Positions 12,001 through 63,900 of a stretch of DNA of 64,000 nucleotides are shown here, one piece after another. The position numbers were made by a program. The stretch's first letter is position 1, and each line of letters begins with the position of its first letter. The DNA is from Carcharhinus longimanus. Its lineage: Eukaryota. Location: positions 53,778,264 to 53,842,263 of the forward strand of contig JASCQW010000132.1 of the NCBI GenBank assembly GCA_030264375.1, in the 5' to 3' direction.

Positions 12001-15000
12001 AAAAGATGTGTGCAAAAGTAAAGGGTGCCTTTGTTTTCCTTCTCATACAGTTAATCTCATCCTCAATATCAACCAGTAATGAAGATCCTCCATAAATACA
12101 TTGATTGGGGTGGCAACCTCCACGTCAAGCAGTTAGCTGAAGGAGTTCATTTAGCATGAAATATTTCCCCTCTACTTTGAATCAACAGTAACCTTTCAGC
12201 ATAACCAAGAGCAGTTTTGCCCAAAGATTTGCACTGTGCTATTGTAAAAATTGGTTCACTATTCTGCCATGACCAGAACTTCTTCATTTAAAGCCATGTC
12301 ATATGCTGAATTAAAGATTTATGTTTTGTAAACTCAATTTTGCTGAAATATTTTATATATTTATTAGTCAGAGATCGATGCTATTAGACTTCAATTATTT
12401 CATTACTTCTGCTGTTGTGTATTTAGTAGTGGCAGACAATATAATCCTTATGGTTATCTGTATCTTTAATTACAGTTTCTAATTTAATCTCATCCAATTT
12501 TGTGATGTTTCTACTTTCCATTTCAATGTTGGAACTGCCACTATCGTTTGATATTAATCTGCAGGTAGTAATCAGCACAGTTCAATCAATGGTGATACCT
12601 CTGTCACAACTGGCAGCCTCCTAGATGACCATCACTGGCACTCGGTGATCATTGAGCGCTATGGACGCAATATCAATTTTACACTGGACCGAGAGACGCA
12701 GCATTTCAGAACTAATGGAGAATTTGACCACTTGGATCTAGACTATGAGGTAATGGATCATTGGGTTTTGAATAAAAATAGAAAATGCTGTAAATATGCA
12801 ACATGCCAGTCAGTATCTGAAAGCAGAAAGTAAGTTGATGTAATGGGCATAAATTTTCACCAGAGGTGCACTGAACTACAAAGCATTACGAATAGCTTGA
12901 GTTAGAAATTAGATTTTTCCAACTTTTATAGTTTTTCTTAATCCTGTGACATGATATATTTTCATCCTTTAAAAAGGACTAAAATGACAGCGAATACTAA
13001 CAGACTTCCCTACAATCAAAATACTTTCTAGTTGAATTGAGGGTTCCATGCTGTTTGATACAGTTAACCAAAGTCAAACTCGGGTGGTTACAGCAATTAG
13101 ATTTCAAACAGAATGGTCAAATAATTAATTTATACATCCCAGTACCAAAGTAATGCATTGTGTCAGTGGAAAATATCATATCCTCCAATGTTAATGGTGT
13201 GGAAGATCATTAGATGTAAAGCATGATGCAGGGAATAAATTAATTTGCCTCCATGATAGTCATACATGTAAAAAAAAATTCAGTCTATTTGGAACACTTT
13301 GAGATGTTTGCGAGTCATGATGAAAGGAGAATTTAGATGCAAATTCAAATTATTTTTCAAACTAATATAAGACAAATAGGTTGAATTTTCAAAAATTTCT
13401 CCCAATCTCACAGCATAATTTCAGCAGGAAGCAGTGGAAAATCATCAAAATGGTGTAAATAACCATTTATATCACTACTCTGGGGATTCCAACAAACTTG
13501 TAGCAGTAGATGAACAGAACCCTCTCATACATCTGGCAGACTAGCACAAATGATATCCTGGTGGGTGTTTGGCATTTGAGAGGAGTTGCATTGTGTTCAT
13601 ACAGTTCATTTCCATTTTCATGGGTAGTGGAGTTGATTCTCTTAGTGGTGGGAGCTTGCTTACCATTGGCTTTTGTGCTTTTTATTTTCAGTGTTGTTAT
13701 CAGTCCTCTAAATGTACATGCACATGAATCTTCACACCCACACTTACCCATAGGGGGCAAAATGGGGCTGCAGATATTTTTAATGGGTGGGAGGGAGGGA
13801 ATGGAGGATTCAGGTCTGTAACTTTAAGGGTGTTTTACATGGGTGAGAGGGTGTGACACACTTGAAATAAGGAATAAGAAAATATAATCCTATCTACTGA
13901 AAACTATAAAAGTCCCGACATAGTTTATACACTTTGTGCTGTGTCATATGTATATGGGCACATTATTGACAACACTTCGGCTTTGCTGAACTTAGCAATA
14001 AATTGTGCATGTTGACTTTTGGCATTTTCATTATATTTACCAATCGAGTGAAACTTGGGTAAGGAAGTGGTTGAATTATTTAAAAAGGGAGGAAGTTATT
14101 GCAAACTCCTGTAATGCTTATCATTTGTTAGTACCTGGGAAATGTTGGGCCTGCCGTTTTTAACCCTTATATAGTGGACAAAGGATTGCGAGTTGACTTG
14201 TTAGTACAGTAATATTTATTCACACATACAATTGATATGAATCACCCACACAATCAATACTAAATTATTTATAGAATACTAAAGTTCAAGTTCAATACTA
14301 GGTCTTGACTTCACTTTTGCGTGACTGGCAAGTACCCTGGCAGATATTGGTCTTTATAAACATGTTGGTCTCTGCAGTCCTATGCATAGTCTGCTCCTTC
14401 AGTCTGGTCTGATACTCTGGGTCTGGTCTTCCTTCTGTCATTGGTGTGGTGGTTCTCCTTCTGCTAGTTATTGCTGGTGTGGTCATTTGTAGGAGAGAGG
14501 GATTCTTCCGTTGTGCTGCACCTTTTATCCCTCATTGGTTTTGCGCTCTTTTGGGTGGTCTCTTGAGTATCACGAATCAGTAGATGAGGGCTTGATCACC
14601 CTCATTGATAAAGTCCAATCAATCTCTGGGTGTGCACCCAACGGCCATGCCTGTAGGTGCTGGAAGTACGTTGGTCACATATCTCCCTCCCAAATAAGGT
14701 TAAGGTGCCCCTGTGTCTGGTAAACAATTCTGTTTAATCAGAAAGTGTCCATTGTCTTTGACATAGCCTATATCCTGTGTATTTGGTCATCTGAGCTGTT
14801 TTATCTCTGCCCTTTAAGCTACAGCCTGTGGCCCGTTTGGCCATAGAAGGGAAAGAATCCAACTGAACGCATCACATTACACTCATCACACCACCCATAT
14901 GTTCCCATCAATTCTTCGAATTTTAAAATGACTCACTAAAATAATTGATAATATTGTTATAATCCAACCATATCAGCAATAATAATACAATAATATTAAG

Positions 15001-60900: not shown

Positions 60901-63900
60901 AGACTTGAAGTAAAACAGAGATTTGCCTGTTGATATACTGCAATGTATGAATGGGTCCATACCATGAGGCTGTACTCCTCCTTGGGTGCCAGGTGTTTGT
61001 GACTGAGATGGCGAGCAGCTTGCAGCACTCTACTGATCCCCTCCATGTGACAGGTCAGGCTAAAGCAGTCGTGTGCCAAAATGAGCAGTTCTACAGCTTT
61101 AGAGTCCATGAAAAGAGAAGGCAGACAAAAAGTCAAACACCAGCGATCTTACATCATTAAAAAGAACAAAAGAACTTCCAATTCATACAGCATCTTTAGT
61201 AACTTCATTACTTCCCAAAGTATTTTACAACTAATGATGAATTTGAGTGTTGAGCCACTAATTACAGCAGTCAATTGGTGCACAGCAAGATCCCAAAACA
61301 GCATCAAATAACCAAATCATCTGTTTTTAGATGTTGGTAGAGTAGATAGGTTTTGGTCAGGTATGGCACCAAAAGAACATCTGCTCTTCAAATGATGCCA
61401 AGGGGTCTTTTGCATCCACCCAAACTGGATAGAAGGGGCTTTGATCTGGCATCAGAATTTGAAATATTGAGCCTCTAATCCTGCAACATTTCCTCAGTAA
61501 TCTGTGCTCAGTATCAGCTCAGATGATACATTCAAATCTCTGGATTGGGGCTCGAGTCCGGAACCTCCTGATTCAGGGGCAAGAATGATGTCACTAAGCT
61601 GGGATTGAAGGCATTCTCCCAGGATCCTGCAGTCAAGGCTAAACCACCCAGCCTATTATTAATAACAGAGGCAAGAGAATCAACCGCGCCTATCAGACAC
61701 AAGCTCACCCTCTTGGCATTCACACAGTATTCAATAAGAAATCTCAAAAATGGATAATGAAGTAGGGGGAATATGAGGAAGGCTGTGAGGAAAGGATAAG
61801 AGTATGAGATTACTCAATTACTTTCAAAGAGCTGGCCCAGGCATGAAGGTCATTCAATGACACAGAGATTCACTCTGATTTTTACTGGTAGAGGCTGTGG
61901 ACAGAGAGGCCAGTTAAAACCTCTCCCCTGATTTTGGTAAAAATACTATCCCAAGCCAATGGAGCCTCAGTGCCCAGTTGGATGTCAACCCAGTATTTAT
62001 AAACTGTATTCTTGACTCCACTCCCCGGGGCCAACTGGATCAGGATCAGGAAATTCCATCTGGGAGGCAGGAATGCTGCCAATAAACCAAAGGCTCACTC
62101 CTGACCTAAAGGGTGTGGGGAATGAGAACAGCAGCTAATTTAGAGCCAGTGCCTTAATTCAGCTCAAGTCACAGTTCTTTTGGGCAGAATCAATGTTTCT
62201 GAGCAATCTGGAGAGCTGGGAATTGGCGATCTTTGGAAAATTAAAGTCAGAATTATGAAGAAGGCAGGCATTTCTCTTTAAACACAAAAGGTTAATGTAT
62301 ACCAAGTCATTTTATTGCACAGGATACTGGCTATAATGTAAAATTTCCAGGTACTTACTGCACTCCAACTCCCCATTTGGAATGGATGAAATTTTATCCA
62401 ATAGCTTGGTACCAACGAGGATTGGGTCTTGGCACAGTTTAGCCAGTTGTAGGAAGGCCTCTTTACCATTGAGGAGATTATAAATCTGCCTCACTCCTGT
62501 GTACAAGTACAACGAGTAGAACAACAACCATTACTAAGGTGAACTACATCTTTTTGACAAATACTTGTTTTAGTTAAGGTGACATTTCCAGGAACAAAAT
62601 CTCTTTTCTGAAACAGGGCAGGTTATATTGCCACCTCTTGACTGCTTCAATCTGAATCCACACCAGATTCTAGCTGAAGGCTTTCTACTTCGCTGACTGA
62701 AAAAGCCAAAAGTTAAATGAAACTGGGCAAGTCACCAGCACAAAGCTGCATTCCCAGTGCATACACCTTGCAAAATACGAAGGTTTAAGCTCCTGTGGAC
62801 TCAAAGGGCTCCTTGATAGAGATTAAAGAAATTCTCTGAACAAACTGCTTTGTGTAAAGAAATTTTGTTGTTTGTAATTAAGCAGTGATACAATTTACAA
62901 AAAGTGTTTAGTTAATGTACATGAAAGTAACGAGACAATCTATGATCAACTGGCGCCTGCAGTTTTAATTAGACTGGATGTGAGCTGAGAGGGAGGGGTG
63001 GGAGAGGGCAACATAGTCAAATGTGCCCTCCCTTAGACATGAATCAAAGCTTTGGCTGGATGTTAAAGATCCCATGACACTTATCAGAAAGGCATAGAAA
63101 GCATCAAGAAGGTAAAGGGACATTGGTTTCAGGTATTGTTTACGGACATTTACTGTGTAGTTCTACGTAATGACAGTGACTGTATTTTAAAACTCAATAG
63201 TTGTGAAACACAGATTTCCTTAAGTGTTGGTGACTATTATAAAATAGTTGCTAATAAAGTTCCAAATGATTTTGCTCATCAAGGTGTGAGATACTAAGAA
63301 CTAACCCTCTTCATAAAACATATAGTGATATCCTCATTGCTATCTCTAAAAATTTTAAACTGGACAAATACCTAAAACAGTTGAATCAATGTCTGTCTGA
63401 GATCATGAACAAAAAAGCTACCTAACTTTATTGGGAAAACTTGCACTTCATTACACTTGAAGTGACACTAACAGTCCACATGATAAAAGCAAATTACTGT
63501 GGATACTGGAATCTGAAACCAAAAGAAAAAATACTGGAAAATCTTAGCAGGTCTGGCAGCATCTGTAAGGAGAGAAAAGAGCTGATATTTCGCGTCCAGA
63601 TGACCCTTTGTCAAAGCTAAAAGGTGTAGAAAGTGGGAGATATGTATTTTGTTGGGTGAGGGAATGAAAGATGAGTCATGGCCATAGAAACCAGGGGAAA
63701 AGGCTGCTAATAGCTGTCCATAGAGAGAATAAAGGGTGTGAATGGCCAAATGACAGAGAAGCTGCAGGCTGTGACAGATGACGATGTTGGTGTGGGAGGG
63801 GGGTGGAAAAGATGGGAAAGAGATAGAATGTAGAAAAGGGAAAGCAGGAGGCAGGAGAAAAGGTTAGGGAAGGGGGATGAAGTCAGGGAGAAGAAAAATG

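What the first reader, a model, noticed from the sequence alone, without database searches (positions are those of the whole stretch)
12565..62496. Intact exon blocks of three unrelated genes (CNTNAP2, DNAH12-like, SPG11) within 50 kb, with expected neighbouring exons missing
Seen: three phase-consistent exon runs with canonical splice sites and no stops. By eye I could not find the dynein exons before LKDIP or after TFKQG, the SPG11 exons after SQPW (which would lie at lower coordinates), or the next CNTNAP2 exon. Known: these are large multi-exon genes on different human chromosomes (7q35, 3p14, 15q21). Inference: most likely a mis-scaffolded or concatenated region. Candidate joins are the repeat-flanked gaps at 29517, 31615, 43137, 44663 and 59424. 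The more interesting alternative is a real rearrangement or an orphan dynein exon pair inside a CNTNAP2 intron.
[Added by the scan's program, not by the reader: the finding's places include an assembly gap (unread letters, written N; its length is only estimated) at 19371 to 19470, 23142 to 23241, 29517 to 29616, 31615 to 31714, 43137 to 43236, 44663 to 45496. Whether the letters on both sides are continuous or in frame is not known: test that first.]
Basis: partly seen in the sequence, partly recalled or inferred. Interest (0 to 1): 0.65.

Follow-up and report, generated by a model that had tools for sequence, protein, structure and literature searches.

The report
Probable mis-scaffolded shark gene fragments
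Real, well-conserved pieces of three unrelated genes sit side by side in this draft cartilaginous-fish sequence, most likely because the assembly stitched separate contigs together, not because the genome is arranged that way.

Summary
The window carries nine clean exons. Three are consecutive CNTNAP2 exons (+), two are consecutive DNAH12-like exons (+), and four are consecutive SPG11 exons (-). All have AG/GT borders and matching phases. No other exon of these genes is in the window.

The "missing neighbours" are mostly explained by contig ends. The dynein pair ends 480 nt before a gap and the SPG11 run 444 nt before one. CNTNAP2 introns are huge in other species.

Six N runs inside the finding show some sign of true adjacency:
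- 19371: consecutive exons on either side.
- 23142: a perfect 50-nt overlap.
- 29517: a shared 15-mer at the contig ends.
- 44663: two halves of one SINE-like repeat.
- 48950: inverted-repeat arms on either side.
- 52800: colinear halves of one reverse-transcriptase frame.

The three joins that bound the dynein and SPG11 contigs (31615, 43137, 59424) show none.

The exons look like constrained orthologues. They differ at 2 of 291 columns that are invariant in named orthologues.

Best reading: two contigs from the real DNAH12 and SPG11 loci were misplaced into a CNTNAP2 intron scaffold (about 0.8). This is not proven, because no reads or whole assembly were on hand. Low interest.

The parts
12565..12749 (+). 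CNTNAP2 exon (185 nt, phase 1 in, 0 out), laminin G
   Evidence: tblastn to P0001 residues 253-315, 95% identity, E 6e-32. Laminin_G_2 E 2.2e-7. AG/GT borders.
15341..15481 (+). CNTNAP2 exon (141 nt, phase 0/0), the next exon in the protein
   Evidence: tblastn to P0001 residues 311-361, 88% identity, E 4e-23. Laminin_G_2 E 2.8e-4. AG/GT borders.
22486..22750 (+). CNTNAP2 exon (265 nt, phase 0 in, 1 out), the next exon in the protein, on the far side of gap 19371-19470
   Evidence: tblastn to P0001 residues 362-450, 85% identity, E 8e-41. All named hits that carry a gene name are CNTNAP2.
39870..40015 (+). DNAH12-like dynein heavy chain exon (146 nt, phase 0 in, 2 out)
   Evidence: PDB 9fqr_PW DNAH12 residues 2873-2919, 69.9 bits. 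98% identity to Scyliorhinus torazame P0078 residues 816-863.
42442..42656 (+). DNAH12-like exon (215 nt, phase 2 in, 1 out), AAA_9 region
   Evidence: PDB 8j07_g1 DNAH12 residues 2921-2991, 130.4 bits, against 116 bits for DNAH7. AAA_9 E 8e-29.
62359..62496 (-). SPG11 (spatacsin) exon (138 nt, phase 1/1)
   Evidence: tblastn to Pristis pectinata P0176 residues 1427-1481, E 8.5e-19. AG/GT borders.
60963..61096 (-). SPG11 exon (134 nt, phase 1 in, 0 out)
   Evidence: Spatacsin_C E 1e-16. 98% identity to P0176 and P0175.
60702..60809 (-). SPG11 exon (108 nt, phase 0/0)
   Evidence: Spatacsin_C E 1e-14. 97% identity to P0176.
59968..60136 (-). SPG11 exon (169 nt, phase 0 in, 1 out); ends 444 nt before the contig end
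   Evidence: PDB 8yad_B spatacsin residues 2197-2251 of 2443, E 2.7e-29. 96% identity to P0175 and P0176.
19371..19470 (.). 100-N gap; the join is supported
   Evidence: Consecutive, same-strand, phase-matched CNTNAP2 exons lie on its two sides.
23142..23241 (.). 100-N gap; the join is supported and the gap is probably spurious
   Evidence: The last 50 nt before the gap (23092-23141) are 100% identical to the first 50 nt after it (23242-23291).
29517..29616 (.). 100-N gap; the join is probably continuous
   Evidence: The 15 nt that end the left contig (29502-29516) recur at 29624-29638, 7 nt into the right contig. These flanks have no other copy in the window.
31615..31714 (.). 100-N gap at the left border of the dynein contig; no evidence of continuity
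   Evidence: In the left flank the SINE-like repeat stops at alignment column about 203, followed by 70 nt of a retroelement C-terminal frame (NFFTQRVV). The right flank is the 3' end of a SINE-like repeat.
43137..43236 (.). 100-N gap at the right border of the dynein contig; no evidence of continuity
   Evidence: The left flank carries a retroelement C-terminal frame on the - strand. The right flank carries a high-copy tail repeat on the + strand (91-95% identical to 19225-19312 and 52900-52975). They are not parts of one element.
44663..45496 (.). 834-N sized gap; the flanks are colinear halves of one SINE-like element
   Evidence: In alignment A1 the left flank stops at column about 188 and the right flank resumes at column 240, on the same strand.
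52800..52899 (.). 100-N gap; the join is supported
   Evidence: The - strand reverse-transcriptase frame continues across it. In 16 of 19 long relatives that match both flanks, the left-flank piece starts 23-25 residues after the right-flank piece ends.
59424..59523 (.). 100-N gap at the left border of the SPG11 contig; no evidence of continuity
   Evidence: No overlap and no shared repeat between the flanks. The remaining ~186 SPG11 residues are not found anywhere at lower coordinates.
31715..43136 (.). 11.4-kb contig that holds only the dynein exon pair
   Evidence: Bounded by N runs. No other dynein exon in it. No other Pfam hit among its frames of 70 aa or more, nor among its 42-69 aa frames from 36951 to its end; shorter frames at 31715-36950 were not scanned.
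59524..64000 (.). Contig that holds the four SPG11 exons and runs off the window
   Evidence: Bounded on the left by an N run. Exons mapped.

Best explanation
The exons are genuine pieces of the animal's ordinary CNTNAP2, DNAH12-like and SPG11 genes. The window is a draft scaffold of a cartilaginous fish, built from short contigs that end in high-copy repeats. The left part (about 7.9-31.6 kb) is a true stretch of the CNTNAP2 locus. An 11.4-kb contig from the DNAH12 locus (31715-43136) and a contig from the SPG11 locus (59524 onward) were put into or onto this scaffold by repeat-mediated false links. The three-gene neighbourhood is therefore an assembly artefact. Shown: the exons, their order and phase, their conservation, the contig structure, and which gaps carry signs of continuity. 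Inferred: that the three unsupported joins are false.
For: 1. Each gene block is confined to its own gap-bounded contig or contigs.
2. The two blocks end close to a contig end. The dynein pair ends 480 nt and the SPG11 run 444 nt before a gap.
3. The arrangement cannot be two intact genes. P0078 has 968 residues after the dynein pair and P0176 has 186 after the SPG11 run. None of these is found in the sequence between the two blocks or elsewhere in the window.
4. The exons behave as constrained orthologues. The window differs at 2 of 291 columns that are invariant in at least 4 named orthologues, 0 of 86 for dynein and 0 of 103 for SPG11. This is no more than the control species.
5. Six N runs in the finding carry positive signs of adjacency: 19371, 23142, 29517, 44663, 48950 and 52800. 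The three that bound the dynein and SPG11 contigs carry none.
6. Contig ends sit in high-copy repeats. The same ~76-88-nt tail lies at 43243-43330 and 52900-52975 and, reversed, at 19225-19312. SINE-like copies occur in all blocks.
7. All contigs share these repeat families, so they come from one genome.
Against: No read, mate-pair, Hi-C or whole-assembly data were available, so no join is shown to be false. Absence of continuity evidence is what any large true gap would also show. Several 100-N joins in the same scaffold are demonstrably good, so the scaffolder is not careless; two misplaced contigs within 30 kb is a lot. GC content does not separate the contigs (0.37-0.44).
Confidence: 0.8

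Rival explanations
1. Real DNA-level duplication. A two-exon DNAH12 fragment, a four-exon SPG11 fragment, or both were copied with their introns into a CNTNAP2 intron and sit there as orphan gene pieces.
For: Introns are retained and splice sites are intact, as expected of a segmental copy. Several other joins of this scaffold are sound.
Against: There are 0 changes at 189 otherwise invariant columns in the two fragments, so a copy would have to be very recent. Two unrelated fragments at one spot would be needed. Both fragments stop within 500 nt of a contig end, which an assembly break explains without further assumption.
Confidence: 0.08
2. The scaffold is right and the genes are true neighbours. 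The missing exons are hidden in gaps of unknown length, with SPG11 and a dynein gene nested in a CNTNAP2 intron.
For: 100-N gaps have unknown true length. SPG11 introns here are short (153-1262 nt), so its last ~186 residues might fit in a gap of several kb at 59424.
Against: The dynein gene would need 968 more residues downstream (P0078). No trace of them is in the read sequence between 42657 and 59423. Pfam also finds no further coding piece in that interval.
Confidence: 0.03
3. The region is a plain concatenation of unplaced contigs with spacer Ns, or contigs from another organism have been mixed in.
For: Many gaps are exactly 100 N.
Against: Consecutive CNTNAP2 exons lie on either side of one gap. 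There is a 50-nt perfect overlap at a second and a shared 15-mer at a third. One reverse-transcriptase frame runs colinearly across a fourth. All contigs share the same repeat families, and all best named hits are cartilaginous fishes.
Confidence: 0.04

Closest known systems
CNTNAP2 (contactin-associated protein-like 2) of cartilaginous fishes
   Same: Three consecutive laminin-G exons with 85-96% identity to Hemitrygon akajei CNTNAP2 residues 253-450. The human gene spans 2.3 Mb with 24 exons (PMC9630569, passages read), so long exon-free stretches are expected.
   Different: Only 198 of about 1321 residues lie in the window. Nothing unusual was seen in them.
DNAH12, inner-arm axonemal dynein heavy chain (PDB 8j07_g1, 9fqr_PW)
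   Same: The two exons match residues 2873-2919 and 2921-2991 (Trp2920 is split across the intron) at the start of the AAA_9 region. DNAH12 scores above DNAH7 and DNAH3.
   Different: About 120 of 3960 residues. The margin over paralogues is modest (14 bits and 5.6 bits), so 'DNAH12-like' is the safe name.
SPG11 / spatacsin (PDB 8yad_B)
   Same: Four consecutive exons covering Spatacsin_C profile positions 27-162 of 296. The last one matches human residues 2197-2251.
   Different: The last ~190 residues and everything upstream of about residue 1427 (Pristis numbering) are not in the window.
Repeat-mediated scaffolding misjoins in short-read vertebrate assemblies
   Same: Contigs end in high-copy SINE- and LINE-like repeats. 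Unknown-size 100-N joins occur, one with unmerged overlapping contig ends. Unrelated genes are truncated at contig borders.
   Different: The class is known to me from general knowledge, not from a paper read here. No direct read evidence was available.

Membership tests
CNTNAP2 orthologue | Laminin G domain sequence | tested here: met
   Laminin_G_2 hits on all three exon frames.
CNTNAP2 orthologue | Best named relatives are CNTNAP2, not other CNTNAP or neurexin genes | tested here: met
   Every hit that carries a gene name is CNTNAP2. The PDB holds only neurexin at 36 bits or less.
CNTNAP2 orthologue | Exons colinear and in phase with the orthologous protein | tested here: met
   Residues 253-450 of P0001 without break; phases 1/0, 0/0, 0/1.
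DNAH12 (inner-arm dynein heavy chain) | Dynein motor AAA_9 region | tested here: met
   AAA_9 E 8e-29 and 1.9e-6.
DNAH12 (inner-arm dynein heavy chain) | Closer to DNAH12 than to paralogues | tested here: met
   130.4 against 116 bits (DNAH7) for the second exon. 69.9 against 64.3 bits (a 4069-residue chain of 9fqr, deposited under another name) and 62.4 bits (DNAH3 of 8j07) for the first exon. No tree was built.
DNAH12 (inner-arm dynein heavy chain) | Complete motor gene at the locus | tested here: not met
   Only two exons are in the window.
SPG11 / spatacsin | Spatacsin_C domain | tested here: met
   Three exon frames hit PF14649, E 1e-14 to 1e-17.
SPG11 / spatacsin | Complete C-terminal domain at the locus | tested here: not met
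   Profile positions 163-296 are absent. There are no tblastn hits to the last 186 residues of P0176.
Nested gene inside a host intron | A whole transcription unit lies within one intron of the host | tested here: not met
   Both guests are truncated fragments.
Scaffolding misjoin | Unrelated genes truncated at contig borders | tested here: met
Scaffolding misjoin | Suspect joins lack continuity while others in the scaffold show it | tested here: met
Scaffolding misjoin | No reads or links span the join; the partner sequence lies elsewhere in the assembly | not testable with these tools
   No reads, no whole assembly and no vertebrate genome collection were on hand.

The most novel reading that the evidence does not exclude
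A shark-like genome really carries intact, intron-bearing fragments of DNAH12 and SPG11 copied into a CNTNAP2 intron. That would be a young hotspot of DNA-level exon capture that could feed exon shuffling into one of the largest neural genes.
Probability: 0.07. Interest if true: 0.4.

Novelty: not a real feature. Interest (0 to 1): 0.1.

Why it matters
If the juxtaposition is an artefact, its use is practical. It flags three joins (31615, 43137, 59424) to break, and one spurious gap (23142-23241) to close, in a draft cartilaginous-fish assembly. It also warns that gene models or synteny maps drawn from this scaffold would be wrong. If it were real, it would be an unusual double capture of gene fragments in a giant neural gene. 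That would be of moderate interest for exon shuffling, but the evidence does not favour it.

Tried and rejected
The species named do not overlap between genes, so no synteny test was possible.
- A fourth gene in the anonymous contigs: Pfam on 143 frames of 70 aa or more and on 271 of the 510 frames of 42-69 aa. The frames at 1-23 kb and at 31.7-36.9 kb were not scanned. This found nothing beyond the known exons, one retroelement-type ALKBH8_N hit and one sub-threshold TRH hit.
- Rfam at gathering thresholds: 0 matches. Tandem repeats: 0. tRNAs: one odd call inside a SINE-like repeat.
- GC and CpG per contig do not separate the blocks.
- Repeat colinearity across gap 19371 using the window's own copies: no support.
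- Repeat colinearity across gap 31615: the left SINE-like copy is truncated and followed by other sequence. A similar 'retroelement tail then SINE' arrangement at 37.5-37.9 kb was too weak to use.
- The peptide at 59524-59704(-) looked to me, from memory, like a LINE C-terminus. Pfam gave nothing, and it does not align with the ALKBH8_N-type frame at 23550-23777. The Atlas gave only unnamed clusters of 62-86 members. It stays a lead.
- Rejected: processed retrocopies (introns are present), cross-species contamination (shared repeats), and LINE 3' transduction of the SPG11 block (the block lies upstream of the retroelement-like frame, not downstream).
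Full report
**What the window is.** The 64 kb has 40.4% G+C and a CpG observed/expected ratio of 0.23. 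It is cut by ten N runs: seven of exactly 100 N and three sized ones of 3, 10 and 834 N. The best named protein matches of its exons are all cartilaginous fishes:
- Hemitrygon akajei and Callorhinchus milii CNTNAP2, 85% and 82% identity.
- Chiloscyllium punctatum and Scyliorhinus torazame dynein fragments, 94% and 92%.
- Callorhinchus and Pristis pectinata spatacsin, 96%.

Mammalian CNTNAP2 hits reach only 63-67% on the same exon. I therefore take the window for a shark-like genome and not for human sequence. I did not use the unnamed hits in those three searches, some of which could come from any source.

**Limits kept.** I did not fill or look up any N run.

**The observation.** It is correct.
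- CNTNAP2. tblastn of the two named CNTNAP2 proteins finds three consecutive + strand exons, at 12565-12749, 15341-15481 and 22486-22750. They cover residues 253-450 of the stingray protein without a break (E 6e-32, 4e-23 and 8e-41; all other hits have E >= 0.29).
- Dynein. The two exons, 39870-40015 and 42442-42656, match DNAH12 residues 2873-2919 and 2921-2991 in solved axoneme structures. DNAH12 scores above DNAH7 on the second exon (130.4 against 116 bits). On the first exon it scores 69.9 bits, against 64.3 for a 4069-residue chain of 9fqr deposited under another name and 62.4 for DNAH3. They also match residues 816-935 of a 1903-residue Scyliorhinus protein.
- SPG11. The four - strand exons (62496-62359, 61096-60963, 60809-60702, 60136-59968) match residues 1427-1611 of the 1797-residue Pristis spatacsin. 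The last exon matches human spatacsin 2197-2251 of 2443.
- All nine exons have AG and GT borders, no stop, and phases that fit within each block.
- Pfam agrees: Laminin_G_2, AAA_9 and Spatacsin_C.
- No other exon of the three genes is anywhere in the window.

**Are the missing neighbours surprising?** Less than it seemed.
- Each block lies in its own gap-bounded contig or contigs: CNTNAP2 in 7948-19370 and 19471-23141, dynein in 31715-43136, SPG11 in 59524-64000.
- The dynein pair ends 480 nt before its contig ends. The SPG11 run ends 444 nt before its contig ends. The SPG11 run starts 1.5 kb from the window's edge.
- The dynein exon upstream would have to lie more than 8.1 kb away. That is not odd for a shark. 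A whale-shark preprint reports very long introns filled with CR1-like LINEs (bioRxiv 10.1101/443036; I read passages and saw no supplements).
- Human CNTNAP2 spans 2.3 Mb with 24 exons (PMC9630569, passages read), so 41 kb without the next exon means nothing.

What does need explaining is the combination. P0078 has 968 residues after the dynein pair and P0176 has 186 after the SPG11 run. None of these is found in the read sequence between the two blocks. The two genes cannot both be intact here.

**The gaps, tested first.** None interrupts an exon, so no frame crosses a gap. Six N runs in the finding show signs of real adjacency:
- 19371-19470 has consecutive, phase-matched CNTNAP2 exons on either side.
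- 23142-23241 is flanked by a perfect 50-nt duplicate, 23092-23141 = 23242-23291. That is the signature of two overlapping contig ends that were not merged, so this gap is probably spurious.
- 29517-29616 has the last 15 nt of the left contig recurring 7 nt into the right contig. This sequence has no other copy in the window.
- 44663-45496 has the 5' part of a ~330-nt SINE-like repeat on the left and its 3' part on the right. They lie on the same strand with about 50 columns missing.
- 48950-48959 is straddled by the two arms of a 57-nt inverted repeat.
- 52800-52899 splits a - strand retroelement reading frame. That frame has 6024 relatives among cluster representatives. I picked 24 long relatives from the 150 listed. 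Of these, 19 match both flanks, 16 of the 19 place the left-flank piece 23-25 residues after the right-flank piece, 3 do not, and 5 match only one flank. Six of six relatives scanned carry RVT_1.

**The three unsupported joins.** The joins at 31615, 43137 and 59424 show no overlap and no shared element.
- At 31615 a truncated SINE-like copy plus a retroelement C-terminal frame faces the 3' end of another SINE-like copy.
- At 43137 a - strand retroelement end faces a + strand high-copy tail.
- At 59424 the flanks have nothing in common.

These three are exactly the borders of the dynein and SPG11 contigs. Lack of evidence is not proof of a false join, because a large true gap would look the same.

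**Are the fragments decaying copies?** No sign of it. At 291 alignment columns that are invariant in at least four named orthologues, the window differs at 2, both in the third CNTNAP2 exon. It differs at 0 of 86 for dynein and 0 of 103 for SPG11. Control species left out in turn differ by as much or more. The exons look like the working genes, or like very recent copies.

**One genome or several?** The SINE-like repeat and other repeat families occur in the CNTNAP2 block, the dynein contig, the anonymous contigs and the SPG11 contig. Contamination from another organism is therefore unlikely. GC content does not separate the contigs. Pfam scans of the longer open frames found no fourth gene. 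Of the 510 frames of 42-69 aa, I scanned the 271 at 23.3-31.5 kb and 36.9-64 kb.

**Verdict.** The most likely account, about 0.8, has three parts:
- The left part of the window is true CNTNAP2 locus.
- 43237-59423 is a coherent anonymous block.
- The dynein contig and the SPG11 contig were misplaced by links through high-copy repeats.

One lead in that direction: the contig ending at 31614 stops inside a + strand retroelement C-terminal frame, and the contigs starting at 43237 and at 52900 both begin with a + strand tail repeat. A copy at 30151-30450 shows a C-terminal frame followed about 170 nt later by a tail of that kind. Lifting out the dynein contig could therefore restore one element. 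The fit is ambiguous, and part of the reasoning rests on my recollection of such elements.

Rival readings are a real recent duplication of gene fragments (about 0.08), true neighbours with exons hidden in gaps (about 0.03), and plain concatenation (about 0.04, contradicted for the left half).

**What stayed unchecked.**
- Reads, links and the rest of the assembly.
- Chromosome-level genomes of relatives.
- Paper supplements.
- The closed collections metagenome contigs and viral contigs, which I neither needed nor used.

Noticed in passing
window 23092-23141 and 23242-23291: A perfect 50-nt duplicate flanks a 100-N gap. It looks like two overlapping contig ends that were left unmerged, so the gap is probably spurious.
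   Followed up: yes
window 28510-28850, 32505-32845, and fragments at 24675-24850, 31360-31560, 31715-31830, 44490-44662, 45497-45630, 54900-55080: A ~330-nt SINE-like repeat family, with two full copies and several 5'-only or 3'-only pieces. ARAGORN makes one odd tRNA-like call inside a 3' piece at 45549-45639(-). Rfam has no match.
   Followed up: partly
window 52577-53625 (-): A retroelement reverse-transcriptase frame with 6024 relatives among cluster representatives. It is interrupted at about codon 216 by a + strand tail repeat (52900-52975) and the gap, as if a second element had inserted into it.
   Followed up: partly
window 23550-23777 (-); proteins P0301, P0320, P0336, P0349, P0436: The Pfam family ALKBH8_N (PF09004) hits a frame here (E 1.8e-11). 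It also sits directly after RVT_1 in 5 of 6 retroelement relatives scanned. In such genomes this Pfam hit marks retroelement remains, not an ALKBH8 gene.
   Followed up: partly
proteins P0349, P0353, P0436: Public predicted proteins that fuse the retroelement RT with ion-channel, immunoglobulin or MHC class I domains. They are probably gene models that swallowed an intronic retroelement.
   Followed up: no
window 9976-10234 and 10475-10733: A large inverted repeat, with arms of about 260 nt that are 83-94% complementary and 240 nt apart. It lies in the intron upstream of the first CNTNAP2 exon and may be a foldback or MITE-like element.
   Followed up: partly
window 31595-31614, 43237-43330, 52900-52975: The contig ending at 31614 stops in a + strand retroelement C-terminal frame. 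Two contigs in the window start with a + strand tail repeat. Either could be its true continuation if the dynein contig is lifted out.
   Followed up: partly
window 43243-43330, 52900-52975, 19225-19312 (reversed), 7047-7136 (reversed), 34256-34320 (reversed): The same short tail repeat sits at or near three contig ends. It appears to be a preferred breaking point for this assembly.
   Followed up: partly
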